Positions 14,445 to 31,933 of a stretch of 32,000 bases of DNA are shown here, one piece after another. The notes below the pieces were generated by a model that did not search any database, was not told the origin of the DNA, and saw only the letters and a program-made list of their open reading frames with translations. This DNA is from Candidatus Saccharimonadota bacterium. Its GTDB lineage: Bacteria; Patescibacteriota; Gracilibacteria; BD1-5; UBA2023. The DNA lies in NCBI GenBank assembly GCA_046350815.1, contig JAXLZO010000001.1:1080001-1112000 (forward strand), written 5' to 3'. A program made the translations under genes and the position numbers. The stretch's first letter is position 1. Each line of letters starts with the position of its first letter.

Positions 14445-17216
14445 ATGACTCTAGATAAACCAAAAGAAGGCTCAGAACTTTCTGGATTTAATATCAATAA
14501 ACTTAGTACTGATGCTGGGTTGGTTGAATTTGCAAAGCTTGCAAAGAATGTTAGTCTCCGCGATATGAAAAAATGGTGAAATACTGGCCTAAAGGCAAAA
14601 CTAGCATGAGCAACTGATGGCGATGTTCTCTATAAAGATTATCTTCACAGAAGACTCGGCATGTGAGATAAAAATGAAATCGATAGCGCAACTATGGCTG
14701 CACTTAAAAAAATCGCAGAATCTGGAAAAGTAGCCAAGATTCCATACACAATTCAGAGAAAAGGAAATGAGTTAGCACATACATCAACAGCTAAAAAGGC
14801 AAGAGAGGCTACGGCTTGAACTCAGTCTATTGAATCTATTGTTTCAATAAAACGTGAAGGTGTAACACAGGACAATGCAAAAAAAATTCTTGAACTTCTT
14901 CCTGCATCAAATGGACTACCAACAAAAAAAGCAATAGAAATGTGGGACAAAATATTGTTGTCAGAAAAAAAAGCAATCCAACGAAATATCTGAACAAAAG
15001 ATGATGGAATATTAGGAAAGAAAACCTTTCTTGCACTTCAGAAACGTGCAAATGATGAAATATACGCTGGTGATGATTTTGAATTTCCTAGAAACCCTGT
15101 GGTTGATAAAAAGCTAACTGCACTTGCGGTTGCAGCGGAAGCTGGGAAGCCTGCGGTTGCAGCGGAAGCTGGGAAGCCTGCGGTTGCAGCGGAAGCTGGG
15201 AAGCCTGCGGTTGCAGCGGAAGCTGGGAAGCCTGCGGTTGCAGCGGAAGCTGGGAAGCCTGCGGTTGCAGCGGAAGCTGGGAAGCCTGCGGTTGCAGCGG
15301 AAGCTGGGAAGCCTGCGGTTGCAGCGGAAGCTGGGAAGCCTGCGGTTGCAGCGGAAGCTGGGAAGCCTGCGGTTGCAGCGGAAGCTGGGAAGCCTGCGGT
15401 TGCAGCGGAAGCTGGGAAGCCTGCGGTTGCAGCGGAAGCTGGGAAGCCTGCGGTTGCAGCGGAAGCTGGGAAGCCTGCGGTTGCAGCGGAAGCTGGGAAG
15501 CCTGCGGTTGCAGCGGAAGCTGGGAAGCCTGCGGTTGCAGCGGAAGCTGGGAAGCCTGCGGTTGCAGCGGAAGCTGGGAAGCCTGCGGTTGCAGCGGAAG
15601 CTGGGAAGCCTGCGGTTGCAGCGGAAGCTGGGAAGCCTGCGGTTGCAGCGGAAGCTGGGAAGCCTGCGGTTGGACTTGAAACAAAATACCAGGATGGAAT
15701 AAATATTCTAAAGGCAGAGTTTGACCCTTCAAAATATACCTATGTTAGCTTTACGATTGATACAAAAGAAACTGGCAAAATAACAAAAGTATATCAAATT
15801 GATACCCAAGCTCTTAAAGCAGAATGAATCAATGATGTAACAAAAGAAAATTCATTTATGCTCATGCATATGGTGAGTAGAGGTGCTGCTGTCATGCCAA
15901 AATACTTTCGTGATATAGACACTATCTCTACAAGTGCTATTCCAAGTAACCTTCGAGGACTTGATCGAGTAGATTATGCAAATGCTCTTCTTAAATCACA
16001 AGGCATAGAAGTTAAGCCAAATATTCTTTCAGATGTAAATGGTCTTGGTGTTGGACTCAAAAAAACTCTTCTTCCATTCGGACTAGATAAGCTTGTCGGT
16101 CTTGGAAAAACTGGGGATGAATCCGTAGATACTGATGAACGAAAATCAGAAATGCAGAAAATCTCAAAAAAACTTCAAGAACAAAGCAATAAAATCTTCG
16201 ATGCGAATAATCGAGAAAACCTTTGAGAGCACTATGTTGATCTTTTTCTGAAAGCAAAGAATTTTGCTGAGCTCCAAGCGCAAGCAAAAGACGATCCTAT
16301 TCTCCAAGAAATCCTCTCTACATTCAGTACTCCAGTAAATCCTCAAGGCGATGAGCTTGGACTTGCCCAAGAAGATATCTTAGAGCGAGTCAAAGCAAAT
16401 ATTAATAAACAAGGACGGGAAGTATTTAAAAAGAAATTTGGCGACTTCATTGACAAAAGAAGTGTCGATGGCTTTATTGTACGAAATACAAATTTCCTCT
16501 TTGATGACGCCACACTTCAATCCATTACATCAAAAGATGGAAGTGGTATTCTCAAAGGAAATATGGATGGCGGTCGAGAAATCTATCTTTCAGCTCAAAA
16601 GCTGGATCTCAATGCAGCGAAACTTTCCTATACCAGAGACGGCAAAAGTATGGAACTATCTAATGAAGTTGCTCAATCTTTCAAGGGTCAAACTATTGAT
16701 CTTGGTATGCAAAAAAGTAATGCGAGCTCCGAAGTGCAAGCCATGATGAAGGAAACAAAAATTCATATCGATAGTAATGGCACAGCATATCTTATCACAA
16801 GTCCGAAATATATCAGTACACTCTCTCAAATCATGAGCCGTACTGGAGACGCTCTCACATCAAAAACAGCAGTCGAAGTATATAAAATAGTTGGTACCGT
16901 ACTTCTCACACTCAAACTTGCTGGGGACCATATTGGTACACCACATATTGGCACACCAAATCTTCCAAGTATTGATGTAAATCTTCCAAGTATTCATACC
17001 CCAGATGTATCATCACTCAATACAGCACTTGGTGGTTATGTACTTACATGAGCACTACTCAATCGAAAAATTGCATTTCTTGAGCGTGATCTTCGGAAAA
17101 ATCATATGGAGACACCATCCAATACTATTCTTACTTCCATGGCAACAAAGTATGGAGGAGATGCACAAAGTAAGCTCGACAAAGAAATTCTTGACGCTCA
17201 TAGGACATGAGCATAA
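14445..17216 (+). CDS. Large hypothetical protein (923 aa) with a 20x AVAAEAGKP tandem-repeat linker
   Basis: ATG 14445. Track ORFs 15099..15827, 15858..16226 and 16563..17051 are in the same frame and joined by TGA only; the segment 16227-16563 was checked and has no TAA/TAG. Stop TAA 17214-17216. N-terminal part contains ...DDGILGKKTFLALQKR..., weakly resembling a peptidoglycan-binding (PG_binding_1-like) helix pair. No obvious signal peptide. Confidence 0.75.
15126..15672 (+). repeat. Perfect 27-bp tandem repeat, 20 complete copies plus a 7-nt partial copy
   Basis: The unit gcggttgcagcggaagctgggaagcct repeats exactly every 27 nt from 15126 to 15665 (540 bp). 15666-15672 repeats the first 7 nt. 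The unit is 18/27 G+C in an AT-rich genome. Confidence 0.98.
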
Positions 17217-24599: not shown

Positions 24600-26384
24600 C
24601 TACAACCTCTTCTCCCCTATCTCACTCTTGAGTATCTCGATGAATTCATTCATACCAACGATCGATTGTTCCTTGGTCTTGTAGTTACGCACCGCTACAC
24701 TCTTATTATTCATCTCCTGTTCACCGACAACAAGGATGTAATTCACATGCTCTGTCTCTGCATTTCGCACTTTTTTATTGAGTCCATCGGATGAGTCATC
24801 GAGACTGACACGGATACCTGCTTGCTTGAGAAGAGAGTACACTTCTTCAGCGTACGGGAAAAACGCTTCACCCACTGGGACGACTCGAGCTTGAAGTGGG
24901 GCAAGCCAAAGTGGAAAGGTTCCAGCAAAGTGCTCGATCATAATCCCCATAAATCGCTCAAGTGATCCAGAAATTGCACGATGAATCACGACTGGCTTCT
25001 CTTGTTCGCCCTTCTCATTCGTAAATGAGAGATCAAATCGATTTGGGAGATTGAAGTCACATTGAATCGTTGCGAGTTGCCACTCACGACCAATCGCATC
25101 CTTGAACATAAAATCCAATTTTGGACCATAGAACGCAGCCTCCCCTTCTACACGCTTATAATTAAGCTCATTCGACTTTGCGGCATCCTCGAGAGCTGAT
25201 TCAGCTGTCTGCCATATATCTTCACCACCGAGATATTTTTCAGGAGTTTGAGGATCTCGAACCGAGAGTGATACCCAGTACCCTTCGAGAAGACCAAATG
25301 TCTTATAAAATTCCTTGATAATTCCGACAATCGTTGATACCTCATCCTTGATCTGAGAGACACGACAGAAGAGATGTCCATCATCCTGAGTGATCGCTCG
25401 CACACGAGTGAGCCCAGAGAGCTGCCCAGTCTTCTCATCACGATACACAGTCGCAGGCTCAAAATATCGAATCGGCATATCACGATAGGAGAACTGATTA
25501 TCAGCAAATATCTGCATGTGATGTGGACAGTTCATTGGCTTGAGATGAAATTTCTCTTTACTCGTACCACCATAGACAGAGAACATATCTTCAAGATAGT
25601 GTCCAGCATGCCCAGAAGTCACATAGAGATCTTCCTTCGCGAGATGTGGAGTCCAGACTCGTAGATACCCCTTATCAGAATGAAGCTGCCAGAGGTAATC
25701 TTCGATCGCCTTACGGATAATCATACCACGAGGCTGCATAAGCGGAAGTCCTGAACCAACAAGATCAGAGATCGTGAAGAGCTTGAGCTTCTTCCCGAGG
25801 ATGCGATGATCTCGCTTCTTTGCCTCTTCGAGCATCTTTACATGCGCATCGAGCTCCTCACGAGTATCGAAGGCAAGTGCATAGATACGAGTGAGCATCT
25901 TCTTCGTACTATCTCCCCTCCAATACGCACCAGCTATCTTTTCAAGTTTGAAAGCATTCTCGTCAATACGACTTGTCTGATCGACATGAGGACCTTGGCA
26001 CATATCGACAAATATCTCTTGACCTTGTTGAGATATATTTCGATAGAAGCTAATAACAGACTCACCCTTCGCACCAAGCTCAGTCGCCATTTCAAGCTTA
26101 TACCTCTCCCCTCTTCATTCGAGATAGGTTTTTGCCTCAGAGAGTGGCAAAGAATATTGCTCAAATTTCTGATTTTGCTTAATGATTTGTTTCATCTTCT
26201 TCTCGATCTCTTTGAGGTTCTCCTCCTTGATCTCGATAGATCCAAAGTCAAAATCATAGTAAAAACCAGTATCAATATCAGGACCGATAGCCATCTGAAC
26301 AGAGTCTCCATAGAGAGATTTTACAGCCTGAGCCATAATATGTGAAAGCGAATGACGCTTAGTAGAAATTGGGAAAGTGGACAT
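24600..26384 (-). CDS. thrS: Threonine--tRNA ligase (594 aa), lacking the N-terminal TGS domain
   Basis: ORFs 26115..26384 and 24600..26090 are in frame across one TGA. The sequence aligns along E. coli ThrRS from the editing-domain HxxxH region (RHSLSHIMAQAV) through GPHV, AGAYWRGDS, RDHR, PMNCPHH, RVRAITQDDGHLFC, FYGPKLDF, HRAISGSLERF and the anticodon-binding domain. Confidence 0.95.
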
Positions 26385-26402
26385 AAGTAGGAGATAACGA
26401 GA

Positions 26403-26780
26403 TTATTTTGTTATTTTATAAGCAATAAAAAACGAAAGGGACACTGAAATCAGTATAGACAAGCATACGAAAAAAATGGAAATATCGATTCATGGGAACA
26501 ATGTAAGCATTAGACTTCAAAAAAAGATAGCACAGATAAAATATAAGGCTATGGATATAGGGATTGATAAAATCAGACATTGTAGCCACTGTCTAATGGT
26601 TCGATGAACTCAACATTGAGTTATTAAAAATAATACAATGATCAAGAATAATACCAACAAGAAAATAAACATTGTAGAGAAAATTCAAACCAATGCTTCT
26701 GTTGCTCAGTGTGCGAATGTAGCACTTGGTATACCCAAGAGAAGTAAACAAAGTAAAGTATTTTTTCGAAAAGTAGACAT
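26403..26780 (-). CDS. Small membrane protein, 'FAH-motif' paralog D (125 aa)
   Basis: MSTFRKNTLLCLLLLGIPSATFAHGATEALVGIF... then 3 hydrophobic segments. 5 in-frame TGA. Stop TAA 26403, 18 nt upstream of the thrS start. Confidence 0.55.
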
Positions 26781-26823
26781 AAGAGAAATTTACATTTAGG
26801 ACCTAAGCCAAAACAAAACAATA

Positions 26824-27078
26824 TTATAAAAACGAGGTAAATAGTATACTCATTTTAGCTAGTAAAAAAATTAAGAGAACTATTCATAATATTTTACAAA
26901 AGATTTTAAAACCTCATATAAGTAACATGAAAAAACATAAAAAACAAAAGTAAATTCAGAGATATATATAGGCCATTCCATCACCATGAGCAAACACAAT
27001 ACTTGGAGTCAAAAGCAACAAGGCAACGAATCCATATCCAACTAATCCATATCGGAGAGGAGATTGAATGAGAGACAT
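26824..27078 (-). CDS. Small membrane protein, 'FAH-motif' paralog A (84 aa, shorter)
   Basis: MSLIQSPLRYGLVGYGFVALLLLTPSIVFAHGDGMAYIYLGIYF... Only about 2 hydrophobic segments follow the motif. Possibly a truncated family member. Confidence 0.5.
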
Positions 27079-27089
27079 AAGAGAGAAGA

Positions 27090-27494
27090 TTATTTAATAA
27101 TTTGACGAGCGAGTTTTGGGGCAAAAGAGAGAAAGATACAAAGTAAAATAAATCATATCAGATAATAAAATATCCAAAACCATTCAGACAAAATAGTTAA
27201 TCCATTAACATTTAATATTCCCCAAAAATATTCCCATATCCATAAGAAGGAAGTAAATATACAAGCATAGAATAACCACGAAAGTAGTATTTGTGCGATT
27301 TTACGAACCGTGCTTCATCCGTATTTATTAGCAAAGTAACAAAATATAACAATAAAGATGATAATTGCTAGCATCAATAAAAAGAATATCAACAAGTATC
27401 AGAATCATTCTACTGTATGTGCAAACGTAATATTTGGAATAAGAATCAACAAAGCAGCTAATCAATATCGGAGAGGAGAATAAGAAAAAGACAT
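27090..27494 (-). CDS. Small membrane protein, 'FAH-motif' paralog B (134 aa)
   Basis: MSFSYSPLRYGLAALLILIPNITFAHTVEGFGYLLIFF... 3 hydrophobic segments. C-terminus ...KLARQIIK. 11-nt gap to the next gene. Confidence 0.55.
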
Positions 27495-27505
27495 AGAAGA
27501 AAAAA

Positions 27506-27925
27506 TTATTTTACGATTTTACGAACTATTTGAACAGAGATATTTGCAAGATAATTTATCCCTTTTGTAATCAAAAAAATACTAATAAGGAAAAGGCCTA
27601 CCAATCAGAAGCTGAAGTTTGTGACATTATCTCTAGTGAGATACAACATAAAAAATACACCTATAAAAACACCAAAAAGTAAGATTATAGAAAAAGTTAA
27701 AGCTATTATTCCTTGAAATATTTTTTTTGTTATAGAACCAGTAGATATCTTTTTGATTCATGCCATAATATAAAATGGTAGAAAAATAGCTGTTAGTACC
27801 ATAACAGGCAGAATAAGCATTATCAAGAAAACTCACGCATCACCATGAGCAAAAGCTACACTAGGGAATAGAACCAAAGATAAAGCAACATAAAGATATC
27901 TGAAAAAAGAATAAGAAAGAGACAT
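27506..27925 (-). CDS. Small membrane protein, 'FAH-motif' paralog C (139 aa)
   Basis: MSLSYSFFRYLYVALSLVLFPSVAFAHGDAGVFLIMLILP... 3 hydrophobic segments. C-terminus ...VQIVRKIVK. Includes track ORF 27633..27836. Confidence 0.55.
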
Positions 27926-27981
27926 ACTAAAGAAAAATTAATGGTAGATCCTGATTTTCATCAGGATGACGGATTTATATA

Positions 27982-28734
27982 GGGTCTAAACCAGTTACGG
28001 GTTATATTGACGAAGTAACTTTAGCACTTCCTTATAAATATCTTTTCATTGAATACGACAATTATATCTGAATTCAGATTCTTTCAAAAAATAGTAGAAG
28101 TAGACTTTCTTGATTCCATTGAATTGAGAGAGTCTTCTTTTGGTATAACTCCAAAATGACTCTATTCAATTAATGTGTTGAGTTCATCTTGCAAATTCAT
28201 TTGCTCCGTGATGAACACGGTAGTGTTTCTCATATCCAATATCTACAAGCCCATCATAAGCTCACCATCCATCACTGTTAATCTCAGACTCTTCTATACG
28301 AAGTTTTCATCGAATGATTGGCACGAGAGTCCTTGCTTTTACATCAGGAACTATCTCAGTATATACTTTTCAGTTTCTTTTGAGTAAACCAAAGACTATT
28401 GTCTTCATACCAGCTCACCTTCCTCTCTTTCATCGGACTCTTGTTGGTCAGAAGTAACTCTCATCTATCTCAACATTTCCAGTCCATATTTCATTCTTTT
28501 CTCTCTCACAGAGAAAGGCTATCGCCTTTCTGATATATCTATACCAATCCTGTGTTGTTTTTGGATTGAGACCTGTTAATACCGCTGTTTTATCTGAAGT
28601 AAAATCCAGAGAAAAATATTTCACAATTTCTCTTATTTTTGCATCTCAAATTCGTGATTTTTTCCTATAGGTAGTTTTACTGATCATAGAGCCAAGTTTA
28701 TGGGATAATTTATCCTGTCAACTGGTTTAGACCC
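27982..28734 (-). mobile_element. IS1595-family insertion sequence (753 bp) with 15-bp terminal inverted repeats and a 7-bp target-site duplication
   Basis: IRL gggtctaaaccagtt (27982-27996) is the exact reverse complement of 28720-28734. Flanking direct repeats ttatata at 27975-27981 and 28735-28741. A single transposase ORF fills the element. Confidence 0.9.
27995..28687 (-). CDS. IS1595-family (ISXO2-like) DDE transposase (230 aa)
   Basis: ...NVEIDESYFGPTRVRGKRGRGAGMKTIVFGLLKRNGKVYTEIVPD...INSDGWGAYDGL...HYRVHHGANEFARG..HINGIESFWSYTKRRL...FLKESEFRYN... is the typical IS1595 catalytic-core pattern. 10 in-frame TGA at Gly positions. Confidence 0.9.
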
Positions 28735-28768
28735 TTATATAAATGAATATCTTATTGAACTCTATCAA

Positions 28769-29326
28769 TTATGTCATCCTGAACTTGATTCAGGATCTTC
28801 GACTACTCCACGGATCTCATGAATCAAATTGCCCGAGGAGTGCAAAACTCTCACTATAGCTGGCGATGATATCAAGGAGTCATCGAGCCTCTTGGAGAGA
28901 AATATCCTCAATATCCTTGCGATGACTAATAAGCTCAATGGTCTTCTGAAGTTCTCCGAGTCGTTTTTGATTGATACTATAGCCTTGTATGAGATATTCC
29001 TTGAGTCTCGTCGTCGCCCATTGACGAAATCTGGTTGCCTTTCAGGAATTTGTCCGATATCAGACCGCGAGGATGACATCAAGTGAATAAAACTTCACCG
29101 GCTTATCAGAATTTGCAATATGCATTTTTTGCATATTGCTTTTTTCATCGATCTCTCCATCTCGAAAAATATTGCGAATATGGCGAGCAACGACCGATTG
29201 ATCAATATCAAAAAGCTCTACAATCTGAGTCTGACTCGCCCAGACCGTATCTTGTCTTGGATCAAGTTGCAGCTCAAGTCGATCTTCGTAGAGAATCAAT
29301 GATGTTTTTTGAAGTTGAGTGGTCAT
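28769..29326 (-). CDS. RhuM-family protein, C-terminally truncated (185 aa)
   Basis: MTTQLQKTSLILYEDRLELQLDPRQDTVWASQTQIVELFDIDQSVVARHIRNIFRDGEIDEKSNMQKMHIANSDKPVKFYSLDVILAVGYRTNSGKATRFRQWATTRLKEYLIQGYSINQKRL... matches the conserved RhuM N-terminal region. The reading frame ends inside repeat hairpin 28773-28797. Confidence 0.7.
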
Positions 29327-29343
29327 AAGGTTTTTTAGTCGAA

Positions 29344-29434
29344 GATCCTGATTTTCATCAGGATGACAAATTTTATAAATGTATACCATATCGAAATACT
29401 ATCAATTACGTCATCCTGAACTTGATTCAGGATC
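29344..29434. repeat. Composite palindromic repeat, copy B (91 bp, intact)
   Basis: gatcctgattttcatcaggatgac (29344-29367), 42-bp spacer, gtcatcctgaacttgattcaggatc (29410-29434). It lies between the RhuM start (29326) and the GIY-YIG stop (29453). Confidence 0.9.
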
Positions 29435-29452
29435 TACCTTTATCTTACAAAA

Positions 29453-29746
29453 CTAGAGGGTTATCGTTTCATAAAGGTCATCCCAATTTGGATTTATGGA
29501 TTCTATAATATCTATCTTCCATTTTCGATGCCAGTTTTTAAGTTGCTTCTCTCGTTCGATCGCTTGCCTGATATTATCAAATGCTTCATAGTATACAAGC
29601 CTTTTACAATTGTACTTCGCTGTAAAACAATTTGGATCAATCACATTTTTATGCTCGTATATGCGTTTCACAAGATCAGATGTAACTCAGATATAGAGGC
29701 TTCATCATTTCCTATTTGCAGTGATGTAGACAAATCATCCTTTCAT
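29453..29746 (-). CDS. GIY-YIG nuclease superfamily protein (97 aa)
   Basis: MKGGFVYITANRKGGSLYIG(TGA)VTSDLVKRIYEHKNVIDPNCFTAKYNCKRLVYYEAFDNIRQAIEREKQLKNWHRKWKIDIIESINPNWDDL is the textbook small GIY-YIG (URI-domain) protein. 5 TGA codons, including the Gly of YIG. Confidence 0.9.
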
Positions 29747-29815
29747 AATACAGAAGAAGTGGCAGATCTCCGACTCGCGACGACTATGTCGCTCCCTGGA
29801 CAGTTTGAGCTAGCC

Positions 29816-29834
29816 GAATCAAGTTCAGGATGAC
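29816..29834. repeat. Partial (half) copy of the palindromic repeat, inverted relative to 29410-29434
   Basis: gaatcaagttcaggatgac is the reverse complement of the first 19 nt of gtcatcctgaacttgattcaggatc. It lies between the GIY-YIG start and the NUDIX stop. Confidence 0.8.
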
Positions 29835-29878
29835 AGATTAAATGGTATTATTCGTCTTCAATATAACCAAAACAACAA

Positions 29879-30313
29879 TTAATGAATCTCCGAGAAAAAT
29901 AATCCTTTTTCAATATCTTCACAAACCTGACGATCGTATCAGACAAATATATCACCATGATCAGCCAAGAGATCTAGAAATTTCAGATCACTGCACTTAT
30001 TTGGTTCACCGATCGTAATGGTTCCAGTATACTTCTGCACATCGATATAGACATCAAAGTATTCTCGATCTGGAGCTATGCGATGACTGACATGGACCAC
30101 TTGCATATCAGCCTCTTGCACCGTGATACAAAGCTCTTCTTGGAGCTCGCGAGCAAGAGCAGATTTTACGAGCTCACCTGACTCAAAGTGTCCAGCAGGA
30201 AGCTGGTATTTACCATCTTTGAATCCAGAGTTTTGACGCTGCATGAAAAGTATTTTCCCAGATGCATCACGGATGATAGCATAGATAGCACCATAGAGAT
30301 GAGGAGATCGCAT
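29879..30313 (-). CDS. NUDIX hydrolase (144 aa)
   Basis: Nudix box GHFESGELVKSALARELQEELCI fits GX5EX7REUXEEXGU. ATG 30313 is preferred over the upstream alternative start used by the track. The frame reads through TGA 29939 to TAA 29879. Confidence 0.85.
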
Positions 30314-30529
30314 AAGATAAACTATATAAAAATAAAAACTCCCCACTCACACAGGAAGTTTTTATTTCACCAAAAAACACCCTATGCAGAGAACAAAGAT
30401 AATGTGCGTGTTCACAGTCGTGTGACCATACCAAAGGGTGATGAGTAAATAACTCTAAGAAATATAGTTTTTTTCTGATTTCTGTCAAATCAGCACAAGA
30501 CAGAGTGGTCCAGAATGTTACAATTTCTA

Positions 30530-31152
30530 ATGATATATGATAGCATCGAAGCCATGACGACTCTTTTTCTCATTATCAGCATCACTGCTCTCGCCGCTAT
30601 CAGCCCGTGACATGATTCTCTCATCATCTCACGAAATACCCTCATCCACGGACGTAAGCATGGATTTGCAACTGCTCTCGGTTGTAGTATGAGTCTCATG
30701 ATTCATATGAGCTATTGTATTCTAGGTATAGCAACACTCCTATCATCCTCACCTATCGCATGGAATATACTCAAAACTCTGGTTGCATATTATCTCATCT
30801 ATCTTGCTTACAAACTCATTCGTCAGCACACAACGCATCAAAGCAAAGCAATGGGAGAAAGGAAAGAAAGAGATATCAAGAAATCATTTCTCGAAGGATT
30901 TTTCTGTGATGTACTCAATCCAGTTGTAATCGTGTTTTTCTCGGCGTCTTTACCCAAGTCATCGATCATGCAGCCTCATGGTGGATTATGCTATGATACG
31001 GACTCGTGATGATCCTTACGATTGTAATCTGGTATGCCATCCTTGCCTACATGGTGAGCTACCAGCGATTCAGAACATACCTCGCACGATTTCATATATG
31101 GATTGATAGGATATTTGGAGTACTACTGATCATGCTTGCAATAAAAATGATA
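30530..31152 (+). pseudogene. LysE/RhtB-family amino-acid exporter gene, frameshifted and with its 3' end interrupted by an IS
   Basis: N-terminus ...MTTLFLIISITALAAISPG(TGA)HDSLIISRNTLIHGRKHGFATALG... and ...FLEGFFCDVLNPVVIVFF are LysE-family blocks. The frame switches (frame 2 to frame 1) at the T5 run 30935-30939, after which ...GVFTQVIDHAASWWIMLGYGLVMILTIVIW...GVLLIMLAIKMI continues. The IS TIR begins at 31153. Confidence 0.75.
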
Positions 31153-31933
31153 GGCTCTAGACCAGAAGAAAGTAACTCATATACTCTCTTCTTATGATCC
31201 CATACAGCAAAATATCAGTTCACGAACTTAAAAAGATTATTAAGTGCTTTTGTGTGGATATTGATGCCACAAAAACAAGCGAGCTTTTGGGATATAATCG
31301 AAAGACCGTTAACCATTATTTCTCTATCTTTAGGAAAATAATCTACACGAATCGTATTGAGGCTTTCAAAGAAAAGATAGGTTGAGAAATAGAAGTAGAT
31401 GAAAGCTATTTCTGAGCCAAGCGAAAAAGATGATTTGCAGGAAAACTTAAACGATGAAGATGAACCCTCAAACAGCCAGTATTTTGACTCATCAAGAGAA
31501 AAGATGAGAATGGAAGAGTAGAAATATATACAGAGATTATTCCGAATTGCAAAGCTGTAACACTCCGCCCTATAATACAGGGAAAAGTCAGTATAGAAGA
31601 TTCTATCCTATATTCGGATGGCTGGAAGGGATACGATGGTCTCGTAGATGTATGAATCGACAAGCACTTTCGAGTCAACCATGGTACAAGTGAATTCTCA
31701 CTTGGGAATGGAATTCACATCAATGGGATTGAGAACTTCTGGAGTTTTACAAAGCGCCGATTGAACAAGTTCAACGGCGTGAAAGTAAACTTTCACCTTC
31801 ATCTCAAAGAATGTGAATGGAGATATACCAAAGAAAGCTTTGAACTTGAGCAGGAACTTCTTACAATGATTAAAATCTTTTATAAAAAATCCAGAAAATC
31901 TTAGATATTTCTAAAATCTTCTGGTCTAGAGCC
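31153..31933 (+). mobile_element. Second, different IS1595-family insertion sequence (781 bp) with 16-bp perfect TIRs and a 7-bp target-site duplication
   Basis: ggctctagaccagaag (31153-31168) is the exact reverse complement of 31918-31933. Direct repeats aatgata at 31146-31152 and 31934-31940. Confidence 0.9.
31194..31904 (+). CDS. IS1595-family (ISXO2-like) DDE transposase (236 aa)
   Basis: Track ORF 31194..31385 continues through TGA: ...EIEVDESYFGAKRKRGFAGKLKRGRGTLKQPVFGLIKR...YSDGWKGYDGLVDVG..HFRVNHGTSEF...HINGIENFWSFTKRRL...LKECEWRY... Stop TAG 31902-31904. Roughly 40% identical by eye to the transposase at 27995..28687. Confidence 0.9.

What the first reader, a model, noticed from the sequence alone, without database searches (positions are those of the whole stretch)
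27947..29834. 91-bp composite palindromic repeats separate consecutive same-strand genes (cassette-like array) next to a GIY-YIG nuclease
Two hairpin types have perfectly conserved sequence: gatcctgattttcatcaggatgac (27947-27970 and 29344-29367) and gtcatcctgaacttgattcaggatc (28773-28797 and 29410-29434). They form two 91-bp units whose 42-bp spacers are only about 60-65% identical by eye. A half copy (29816-29834) is inverted relative to 29410-29434. In transcription order on the minus strand the layout is NUDIX - half repeat - GIY-YIG - repeat B - truncated RhuM - repeat A - small-membrane-protein array. Each gene is thus followed by a repeat, and both the GIY-YIG gene and the RhuM fragment are bounded by inverted GTCATCCTGA...TCAGGATGAC ends. 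Conserved inverted ends with a variable centre recall integron attC sites or REP/MITE-type elements. From memory (not verifiable here), similar GTCATxCTGA...TCAGxATGAC palindromes accompany small GIY-YIG genes in other phyla, which would make the nuclease a candidate mobilising or processing enzyme. No integrase is present in the window and the ends do not match the canonical attC R'/R'' core.
Basis: partly seen in the sequence, partly recalled or inferred. Interest (0 to 1): 0.65.

Follow-up and report, generated by a model that had tools for sequence, protein, structure and literature searches.

The report
Hairpin repeats of an Ssn nuclease
The conserved hairpins are real, but they are the recognition motifs of a small single-strand-DNA nuclease (the GIY-YIG gene next to them), a pairing first described in 2025, so this is a new example of a known system rather than a new kind of element.

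Summary
One point is wrong: "unit A" is 851 bp in the window, because a 753-bp IS1595-family insertion sequence sits in its spacer. Removing the IS and one 7-bp target duplication restores exactly 91 bp.

The hairpins (GTC + 8-bp stem + 4-5-nt loop + C) have the architecture of NTS/SRM motifs. These are bound as ssDNA and cut a few nt upstream by SsnA, a ~94-aa single-domain GIY-YIG nuclease (Chenal et al. 2025, PMC11893778). The window's 97-aa GIY-YIG protein keeps the SsnA catalytic residues.

Three related contigs and 80 independent metagenomic loci show the published layout: a sense hairpin upstream of the gene and an antisense hairpin downstream.

The 91-bp units are hairpin doublets, like Neisseria NIME units. 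No integrase, RAYT or Xer is present, and no terminators coincide with the hairpins.

Two modest additions:
- This A/T-rich hairpin type is missed by the published search pattern.
- Strain comparison shows a gene replacement starting 15 nt from a doublet, and a doublet inversion.

Verdict: a new member of a known kind, of modest interest.

The parts
29453..29746 (-). ssnA homologue: a 97-aa single-domain GIY-YIG nuclease (code 25, four in-frame TGA = Gly).
   Evidence: Pfam GIY-YIG 1.9e-17. Homologues of ~95 aa are 60-67% identical in many phyla. Y7, Y18 and E66 are invariant in the family and align with Y6/Y17/E64 of 94-aa members, the residues mutated in Nm SsnA.
29816..29834 (-). 5' part (GTCATCCTGAACTTGATTC) of the sense hairpin upstream of ssnA.
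   Evidence: I1, I19. Alignment with the intact upstream hairpins of L120, L121 and L122.
29770..29815 (-). 46-nt, 61% GC insertion that splits the upstream hairpin. Origin unknown.
   Evidence: Absent from L120, L121 and L122. Unique among the window and all fetched loci. No tRNA and no fold signal.
29759..29769 (-). Remnant of the 3' arm and tail of the split upstream hairpin: AGATCTGCCAC, against AGGATCTACCAC in relatives.
   Evidence: and alignments.
29410..29434 (+). Hairpin H2B, antisense to the genes, 18 nt after the ssnA stop codon. Stem ATCCTGAA, loop CTTGA.
   Evidence: ssDNA fold -6.4 kcal/mol, z -3.7. Same position and polarity in L121 and L122 and in 50 of 59 downstream hairpins of 80 loci.
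29368..29409 (.). 42-nt, 19% GC spacer of doublet B.
   Evidence: GC. Homologous to the spacers of doublet A, L120 and L121.
29344..29367 (-). Hairpin H1B, sense strand, 17 nt upstream of the rhuM start codon. Stem ATCCTGAT, loop GAAA.
28769..29326 (-). rhuM' fragment: the first ~172 residues of a RhuM/Fic gene. The ORF then reads through hairpin H2A and ends ...FRMT*.
   Evidence: Pfam Virulence_RhuM 3.4e-20, profile positions 15-75 of 252 only. L120 has the full 323-aa gene with the HPFSDGNKR motif. Homology with L120 ends at window 28813.
28773..28797 (+). Hairpin H2A, antisense, starting 15 nt beyond the point where rhuM homology with L120 ends.
27982..28734 (-). IS1595-family insertion sequence inside the spacer of doublet A. 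TIR GGGTCTAAACCAG, TSD TTATATA at 27975-27981 and 28735-28741, transposase at 27995-28687.
   Evidence: Pfam DDE_Tnp_IS1595 5e-27. NCBIfam transpos_IS1595 5e-47. Excision restores a 91-bp unit.
27947..27970 (-). Hairpin H1A, sense strand, 21 nt upstream of the start codon of the first small membrane protein gene.
26403..27925 (-). Four paralogous small membrane-protein genes (139, 134, 84 and 125 aa). Together with doublet A they replace the rhuM 3' half and a lipoprotein gene found in relative L120.

Best explanation
The hairpins are Ssn-related motifs (SRM/NTS type). The 97-aa GIY-YIG gene between them is their cognate SsnA-family nuclease.

Inferred mechanism, by homology with the Neisseria, N. 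elongata, N. wadsworthii and Wolbachia enzymes:
- When this DNA is single-stranded (uptake, replication, repair), each hairpin folds.
- The protein binds the stem together with the C just 3' of it.
- It then cuts that strand a few nucleotides 5' of GTC. It does not act on dsDNA, RNA or the opposite strand.

Shown directly by the sequence:
- The hairpins are polar. A sense copy lies 17-24 nt upstream of the start codons of ssnA, rhuM and the first membrane-protein gene. Antisense copies follow ssnA and the rhuM fragment.
- Where an antisense and a sense copy abut they form the 91-bp doublet, with GTC heads facing inward and a 42-nt A/T-rich spacer.

Inferred consequences:
- Cuts on both strands would fall inside the spacers, chopping ssDNA of this locus into gene-sized pieces.
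- As proposed for Neisseria NTS/NIME arrays, this would modulate recombination with incoming DNA and make the locus a hotspot of gene replacement.
For: Motif:
- Same plan as NTS, CGTCAT-palindrome-ATC-YRG. The window has GTCAT-CCTGA-loop-TCAGG-ATC-TWC.
- The paper found the 3 nt before the palindrome critical for cutting and the C after it critical for binding. Both are invariant here.
- Each hairpin folds as ssDNA at -6.4 kcal/mol, z about -3.6.

Protein:
- Single GIY-YIG domain of 97 aa, with the Y/Y/E catalytic triad conserved.

Association:
- Relatives L120, L121 and L122 all have a sense hairpin upstream and an antisense hairpin downstream of the gene.
- L122 keeps H2 at 28/28 identity although its coding DNA is about 73% identical. 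Its downstream copy carries a compensatory AT>AC/GT change.
- In 80 metagenomic loci, 68% have a hairpin within 150 bp and 49% on both sides. Upstream copies are sense 41:7 and downstream copies antisense 50:9.
- Unbiased search: 102 of 150 hairpins carry GTC...C, against a chance rate of 1/256.
- The closest proteins (L123, L124, L126) carry the same CCTGA-type stems.

Hotspot:
- L122 has nothing between ssnA and ThrRS. L120 has a doublet, full rhuM and a lipoprotein gene. The window has a doublet, rhuM', a second doublet with an IS, and four membrane-protein genes.
- The doublet is inverted in L120.
Against: - No biochemistry exists for this protein or for this A/T-rich hairpin type.
- The published degenerate SRM pattern does not match any of the window's hairpins.
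- I could not compare directly with Nm SsnA or CDD cd10448, as neither is available in the tools.
- Genome-wide copy number is unknown. All copies in the 32-kb window lie within 1.9 kb.
- Only 2 of 119 hairpin-bearing loci from other genomes have a GIY-YIG gene within 8 kb. Dispersed repeats would give this result, but it shows that most copies act, if at all, in trans.
- In the window the sense hairpin upstream of ssnA is disrupted.
- A role in transformation is an extrapolation from Neisseria.
Confidence: 0.8

Rival explanations
1. The hairpin-ssnA-hairpin unit is itself a selfish, IS-like mobile element. The doublets and hairpin-flanked gene fragments would be its footprints or cargo, and the nuclease would be the mobilising enzyme.
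For: - The gene is flanked by inverted hairpins with heads outward, like TIRs. The paper's authors raise this idea themselves.
- Identical 25-mers (for example GTCATCCTGAACTTGATTCAGGATC) occur in many phyla, and proteins are 60-67% identical across phyla. This suggests horizontal spread.
- rhuM' and ssnA are each bounded by inverted hairpins.
Against: - In this lineage ssnA stays beside ThrRS in three relatives, including one with only 67% protein identity.
- No target-site duplications flank the units.
- No transposition activity is known for any Ssn. The published activity is ssDNA cleavage only.
Confidence: 0.08
2. The 91-bp units are non-autonomous MITE- or REPIN-type elements moved by a transposase (the resident IS1595 elements or a RAYT), unrelated to the GIY-YIG gene.
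For: - The units have conserved inverted ends with a variable centre.
- Two IS1595-family elements are present in the window.
- The doublet architecture resembles REPINs and BIMEs.
Against: - The IS termini (GGGTCTAAACCAG, GGCTCTAGACCAG) are unrelated to the hairpins, and the IS is inserted into a unit with its own TSD.
- No TSD flanks the units.
- No Y1/RAYT transposase is present in the window.
- The hairpins show strong, polar association with ssnA in 80 loci.
Confidence: 0.04
3. The hairpins act at the RNA level, as terminators, transcript stabilisers or processing sites between co-directional genes.
For: - All copies are intergenic within a co-directional gene string and would be transcribed.
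- Sense copies sit 17-24 nt before start codons.
Against: - None of the 6 terminator-like sites in 26300-30500 coincides with a hairpin, and no T-tract follows any of them.
- There is no Rfam match.
- Homologous enzymes do not bind RNA.
- The strict GTC...C polarity around ssnA has no RNA-level explanation.
Confidence: 0.04
4. The array is an integron-like cassette array (CALIN) in which the 91-bp units serve as attC sites.
For: - The units are of attC-like size, with conserved inverted ends and a variable centre.
- They can fold as one long imperfect ssDNA hairpin (-14.9 kcal/mol).
- Genes alternate with repeats.
Against: - There is no tyrosine recombinase in 32 kb.
- The ends do not fit R''/R' (RYYYAAC/GTTRRRY).
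- The same hairpins occur singly and in heads-outward doublets in many phyla and flank ssnA with fixed polarity.
Confidence: 0.02

Closest known systems
Ssn nucleases with NTS/SRM hairpin repeats (Chenal et al., Nat Commun 2025, PMC11893778)
   Same: - A single-domain GIY-YIG protein of about 95 aa with the same catalytic residues.
- A polar hairpin motif: GTC(AT) head, palindrome, then C.
- Hairpins on both sides of the gene.
- A cluster next to membrane-protein genes.
   Different: - The stem is A/T-rich (CCTGA) with 4-5-nt loops, and is not matched by the published degenerate SRM pattern.
- The host uses genetic code 25.
- Only five copies were seen, all beside the gene.
- No biochemical data exist for this pair.
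Neisserial intergenic mosaic elements, NIMEs: dRS3-RS-dRS3 arrays (Bentley et al. 2007, PMC1797815)
   Same: - Hairpin repeats flank short (19-214 bp), less conserved, lower-GC spacers. Here the hairpins are 42-44% GC and the spacers 19%.
- Arrays lie next to surface or membrane protein genes.
- Array content differs between strains.
- An opportunistic IS insertion sits inside the array.
   Different: - The consensus is not the dRS3 sequence (ATTCCCN8GGGAAT).
- This is a tiny array of two doublets, not hundreds of copies.
- It lies outside Neisseria, where NIMEs were said in 2007 to be unique.
REP / BIME / REPIN elements with RAYT (IS200/IS605-like Y1) transposases
   Same: - Short polar palindromes with a conserved 5' head.
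- The palindromes are arranged as inverted doublets.
- They are recognised as ssDNA hairpins by a small dedicated enzyme whose gene they flank.
   Different: - The enzyme is a GIY-YIG nuclease, not an HUH/Y1 transposase.
- The head is GTCAT, not GTAG.
- No transposition has been shown.
Integron attC sites and cassette arrays
   Same: - Repeats of about 60-140 bp with inverted conserved ends and a variable centre.
- The repeats are active as folded ssDNA.
- They separate co-directional genes.
   Different: - There is no integrase and no R/L box consensus.
- Each end is a self-contained hairpin.
- The partner is a nuclease rather than a recombinase.
pdif (XerC/D) modules of Acinetobacter plasmids (from my own knowledge)
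   Same: Short imperfect palindromes in alternating orientation bound discrete gene modules.
   Different: - No Xer recombinase is nearby.
- There is no 11-6-11 dif architecture.
- The setting is chromosomal, and the association is with GIY-YIG.

Membership tests
Ssn / SRM system | Small (~94-100 aa) single-domain GIY-YIG protein | tested here: met
   97 aa. The Pfam GIY-YIG domain covers residues 4-78 and no other domain is present. Homologues are 94-100 aa.
Ssn / SRM system | Catalytic residues equivalent to SsnA Y6, Y17 and E64 | tested here: met
   Y7, Y18 and E66 are present. Y18 and E66 are invariant and Y7 nearly invariant in a 28-sequence alignment. In 94-aa members (P0025) they fall at positions 6, 17 and 64, which are the residues mutated in the paper.
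Ssn / SRM system | Membership of CDD cd10448, or BLAST E<1e-10 to N. meningitidis SsnA (NMV_0044/NMB0047) | not testable with these tools
   Neither CDD nor the Neisseria sequence is available. NCBIfam has no specific model and PDB has no relative.
Ssn / SRM system | Polar hairpin motif: GTC(AT) directly 5' of a palindrome and C directly 3' of it | tested here: met
   All four complete copies and the split fifth have it. ssDNA folds are at z about -3.6.
Ssn / SRM system | Match to the published degenerate SRM search sequence HGTCWYN(0-2)YYVSBRHN(0-5)WNVSBRGN(0-2)RNCYNB | tested here: not met
   There are 0 hits in the window, while the NTS control matches. The pattern also misses 53 of 102 GTC...C hairpins beside ssnA homologues, including all 19 with A/T-rich stems.
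Ssn / SRM system | Motif copies flank the gene on both the 5' and 3' sides | tested here: met
   The window has a split sense copy upstream and H2B downstream. The copies are intact in L120, L121 and L122. 39 of 80 independent loci have copies on both sides.
Ssn / SRM system | ssDNA-specific, strand-specific cleavage a few nt upstream of the motif | not testable with these tools
   This needs purified protein and oligonucleotide assays.
Ssn / SRM system | Motif enriched genome-wide relative to shuffled sequence | tested here: inconclusive
   There are 4 exact copies against 0 expected in the 32-kb window, but all lie within 1.9 kb. The rest of the genome is not available.
NIME-type arrays | Hairpin repeats flanking short, less conserved spacer (RS) elements, with a GC peak/trough pattern | tested here: met
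   The hairpins are 100% identical between the two doublets and the spacers 77% identical. GC is 0.42-0.44 for hairpins and 0.19 for spacers.
NIME-type arrays | dRS3 consensus ATTCCCN8GGGAAT; Neisseria | tested here: not met
   The stem is ATCCTGA and the host uses code 25.
Integron attC / CALIN | Integron integrase nearby, or attC R''/R' core sites (RYYYAAC / GTTRRRY) | tested here: not met
   No tyrosine recombinase was found among the 29 window ORFs scanned. The ends read GATCCTGA...TCAGGATC.
Integron attC / CALIN | Score above threshold with the IntegronFinder attC covariance model | not tested
   The model is not available here. Rfam has no match in 27800-30000.
REP/REPIN-RAYT | Associated Y1 (IS200/IS605-like) RAYT gene and a GTAG-type head | tested here: not met
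   No Y1_Tnp domain is present in the window. The head is GTCAT.
MITE derived from the resident IS1595 elements | Terminal inverted repeats matching the IS, with flanking target-site duplication | tested here: not met
   The IS TIRs are GGGTCTAAACCAG and GGCTCTAGACCAG with 7-bp TSDs. The units have different ends and no TSD.

The most novel reading that the evidence does not exclude
In this code-25 bacterium the Ssn nuclease and its hairpin doublets could form an integrase-free cassette-exchange platform.

Proposed mechanism:
- Cuts in the doublet spacers would release units of the form [sense hairpin - short leader - ORF - antisense hairpin] from incoming or replicating ssDNA.
- These units would then be swapped, inverted or inserted by recombination at the hairpins.

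Observations that fit:
- The hairpin-leader-ORF-hairpin pattern is repeated three times.
- The gene replacement begins 15 nt from a doublet.
- The doublet is inverted in a sister strain.

On this reading, NIME-like recombination hotspots would be a general property of Ssn systems rather than a Neisseria peculiarity.
Probability: 0.15. Interest if true: 0.7.

Novelty: new member of a known kind. Interest (0 to 1): 0.3.

Why it matters
This finding assigns a concrete, testable function to a repeat that would otherwise be filed as an unexplained palindrome or a pseudo-integron.

It extends the Ssn/SRM pairing in three ways:
- To a bacterium that uses genetic code 25.
- To an A/T-rich hairpin class. 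The published search pattern missed all 19 A/T-rich-stem hairpins next to ssnA homologues, so published SRM censuses probably undercount low-GC genomes.
- To natural strain-to-strain evidence outside Neisseria that genes next to such hairpin doublets get replaced and that doublets invert. This is what the recombination-hotspot hypothesis for NTS/NIME arrays predicts.

The H1 and H2 sequences with this 97-aa protein would also be a ready-made new enzyme/site pair for ssDNA-cutting tools.

Tried and rejected
- **IS ends:** I first read the hairpins as the inverted ends of the IS1595 element and the 91-bp unit as its MITE. I rejected this once the true IS ends and a 7-bp TSD were found inside the spacer, with a second IS copy confirming those ends.
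- **Rfam:** An E-value scan of 27800-30000 gave only sub-threshold noise.
- **Chance matches in the genome scan:** My arithmetic gives about 120 expected hits for 18 fixed bases with 7 gap lengths in 596 Gb. I rejected chance because 116 of 140 loops are 7 nt and three loop sequences account for 90 of them.
- **GIY-YIG next to every hairpin:** Only 2 of 119 hairpin loci have the gene within 8 kb. The association holds from the gene's side, not from each repeat's side.
- **8-bp flank symmetry (TTCGACTA/TAGTCGAA) as cassette ends:** This is explained by a conserved 3' tail of the motif, ATC-T-W-C..., which all copies and relatives share.
- **46-nt insert as a tRNA fragment:** ARAGORN found nothing.
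- **An IS-free allele of doublet A:** ThrRS look-ups gave only short contigs ending inside the membrane-gene array. The NUDIX and RhuM code-11 fragments are not on record.
- **Other sources:** The paper's supplementary tables are not held. PDB has no sequence relative.
Full report
**What is in the sequence**

The window reads far better in genetic code 25 (TGA = Gly) than in code 11: 19.6k against 5.6k aa in ORFs of at least 80 aa.

The pattern GTCATCCTGA-N(4-10)-TCAGGATC occurs four times in 32 kb, against none in 100 shuffles:
- H1 (24 nt) at 27947-27970 and 29344-29367, read on the minus strand.
- H2 (25 nt) at 28773-28797 and 29410-29434, read on the plus strand.
- A fifth, partial copy at 29816-29834.

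- NUDIX, 29879-30313.
- A 97-aa GIY-YIG protein, 29453-29746.
- An N-terminal RhuM fragment, 28769-29326.
- Four paralogous small membrane proteins, 26403-27925.
- ThrRS, 24600-26384.

**Correction to the observation**

Only 29344-29434 is a 91-bp unit as it stands. The other H1/H2 pair is 851 bp apart because an IS1595-family insertion sequence sits in its spacer:
- The IS spans 27982-28734, with TIR GGGTCTAAACCAG and a 7-bp duplication TTATATA.
- Its 230-aa transposase hits Pfam DDE_Tnp_IS1595 at 5e-27 and NCBIfam transpos_IS1595 at 5e-47.
- A second element at 31153-31933, whose transposase is 47% identical, has matching ends and also a 7-bp duplication. This fixes the IS boundaries.

Deleting the IS and one duplication copy gives exactly 91 bp. 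The hairpins are then identical to the other unit and the 42-nt spacer is 33/43 identical.

**Identity of the hairpins**

A scan of one genome per species found the same hairpin in at least 119 loci from many phyla.
- The hit count alone is about what chance would give.
- The loops are not random: 116 of 140 are 7 nt, with ACTTGTT ×50, ATTTATT ×20 and ACTTGAT (= H2) ×20.
- A generalised form (GTCAT, stem, loop, stem, AT) occurs 210 times in 873 kb against 4 in shuffled sequence, mostly as inverted doublets.

The literature search led to Chenal et al. 2025 (PMC11893778). The paper reports:
- The Neisseria NTS motif, CGTCAT-TCCCGCG-MAV-GCGGGA-ATC-YRG, and its relatives in other phyla ("SRM").
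- The motif is bound as ssDNA by SsnA, a 94-aa single-domain GIY-YIG protein.
- SsnA cuts a few nucleotides upstream of the motif. It does not act on dsDNA, RNA or the complementary strand.
- The three bases before the palindrome matter most for cutting, and the C after it matters most for binding.
- 71% of ssnA homologues have an SRM nearby and 42% have one on both sides.

The window's hairpins share this plan (GTC, 8-bp stem, 4-5-nt loop, C). Each folds as ssDNA at -6.4 kcal/mol, with z about -3.6.

**The protein**
- It is a bare GIY-YIG domain.
- Homologues of about 95 aa are 60-67% identical in Rickettsiales, Hyphomicrobiaceae, Bacteroidota, Campylobacterota and Patescibacteria.
- In a 28-sequence alignment Y18 and E66 are invariant and Y7 nearly invariant.
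- In 94-aa members these residues fall at positions 6, 17 and 64, the SsnA residues whose mutation abolished cleavage.
- I could not run CDD or compare with the Neisseria protein itself.

**Independent tests of the association**

Three related contigs were recovered:
- **L121** (about 84% nt identity): NUDIX, sense hairpin, ssnA, then a doublet with a 33-nt spacer, then rhuM.
- **L120** (80-88%): the same layout, but the doublet is inverted relative to the window.
- **L122** (protein 67% identical, coding DNA about 73%): keeps H2 at 28/28 identity 22 nt upstream of the start codon.
  - Just after the stop codon it has a variant, GTCACCCTGAatttattTCAGGGTC, carrying a compensatory stem change.

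In 80 metagenomic loci encoding this subfamily:
- 54 have a perfect GTC-stem-loop-stem-C hairpin within 150 bp of the gene, and 39 have one on both sides.
- Upstream copies are sense 41:7 and downstream copies antisense 50:9.
- The closest proteins carry CCTGA-type stems.

A search for any perfect hairpin, with no flank requirement, found 150 near these genes. Of those, 102 carry GTC...C, against a chance rate of 1/256.

**Where the window departs from the published description**
- The published degenerate SRM pattern matches none of the window's hairpins.
- It catches only 49 of the 102 hairpins above, and none of the 19 with A/T-rich stems.
- This is therefore a hairpin class that the published census would miss.

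**Anatomy in gene orientation**

The layout is:

split sense hairpin – ssnA – [antisense H2 – 42 nt – sense H1] – rhuM' – [antisense H2 – 42 nt + IS – sense H1] – four membrane-protein genes – ThrRS

- Sense hairpins sit 17-24 nt before the start codons of ssnA (in relatives), rhuM and the first membrane-protein gene.
- The 8-bp flank symmetry TTCGACTA/TAGTCGAA is a shared 3' tail of the motif.
- The doublets have GC 0.42-0.44 in the hairpins and 0.19 in the spacers.
- Their spacers are homologous across the window, L120 and L121.
- This matches the dRS3-RS-dRS3 "NIME" units of Neisseria, which also carry opportunistic IS insertions, vary between strains and sit beside surface-protein genes (PMC1797815).

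**Strain polymorphism**

Between ssnA and ThrRS the loci differ:

| Locus | Content between ssnA and ThrRS |
|---|---|
| L122 | nothing |
| L120 | doublet, full-length 323-aa RhuM/Fic gene, lipoprotein gene |
| Window | doublet B, first ~172 codons of rhuM, doublet A (with the IS), four membrane-protein genes |

Homology between the window and L120 stops at 28813, which is 15 nt from hairpin H2A.

**Rivals**
- **Integron, Xer or RAYT partner:** no integrase, Xer, serine recombinase or RAYT is encoded in the window.
- **Terminators:** no terminator-like site coincides with a hairpin.
- **Known RNA family:** Rfam has no match.
- **MITE:** the units lack target duplications, and their ends are unrelated to the resident IS.
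- **Selfish ssnA element:** this reading is not excluded. It is disfavoured here by the conserved position of ssnA beside ThrRS.

**Verdict**

The GIY-YIG link is right. The system is the published Ssn/SRM pair arranged in NIME-like doublets. It is a new member of a known kind, with an unlisted A/T-rich motif class and some natural evidence that such doublets mark recombination breakpoints.

What is shown here:
- The anatomy of the hairpin array.
- The conservation of the hairpins.
- The polarity of the hairpins relative to the genes.
- The association with ssnA homologues.
- The polymorphism between strains.

What is inferred from homologues:
- ssDNA cleavage by this particular protein.
- Any effect on DNA uptake or recombination.

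Noticed in passing
window 27982-28734 and 31153-31933: Two IS1595-family insertion sequences (753 and 781 bp). Their TIRs are related (GGGTCTAAACCAG / GGCTCTAGACCAGAAGA), both have 7-bp target duplications (TTATATA, AATGATA), and their transposases are 47% identical. Both genes need code 25 to read through.
   Followed up: partly
window 27971-27981: The IS target duplication (27975-27981) begins 4 nt from the GTCAT head of hairpin H1A. An Ssn-type cut on the minus strand would fall about there. This may be coincidence or insertion at a nick.
   Followed up: no
window 29770-29815: A unique 46-nt, 61% GC insertion splits the hairpin upstream of ssnA. It is absent from three relatives and has no other copy in the window or in about 200 fetched loci. 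It is not a tRNA.
   Followed up: partly
L120 335-436 versus window 29337-29438 and L121 1561-1650: The hairpin doublet downstream of ssnA is inverted in L120 relative to the window. The flank tails suggest the window differs from L120 by inversion of the whole unit. L121 appears to differ from L120 by inversion of the inner part only. The L121 spacer is 33 nt, not 42.
   Followed up: partly
L022, L119, L085, L081 (other phyla): The 5' half of the motif plus about 9 upstream nt ([N9]GTCATCCTGAAC) is tandemly duplicated immediately before a complete hairpin in several unrelated genomes. This could be a recurring slippage or repair footprint.
   Followed up: no
window 14990-15800: A perfect 27-bp tandem repeat of about 20-30 copies encodes AAEAGKPAV repeats inside a 923-aa ORF (14445-17216) that has no Pfam match.
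   Followed up: no
window 26403-27925: Four tandem paralogous small membrane-protein genes share an N-terminus of the form MS.S.S..RY....L....P...FAHG. They have no Pfam match, and relatives L120-L122 have no homologue. L120 has a lipoprotein gene at this position instead.
   Followed up: partly
L120 449-1420: The full-length RhuM homologue (323 aa) carries a Fic-type HPFSDGNKR motif in the C-terminal half. That half is missing from the window's copy.
   Followed up: no
window 30515-31027: A LysE-type translocator ORF covers only profile positions 3-120 of 193 and ends about 125 bp before the second IS. The IS may have truncated it.
   Followed up: no
loci L123-L202: Hairpins next to ssnA homologues fall into two loop classes. 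One is GNRA-like tetraloops (GAAA, GAAG, GCAG). The other is CTTGA/CTTGT/TTTAT pentaloops. The window's doublets combine one of each (H1 = GAAA, H2 = CTTGA).
   Followed up: partly
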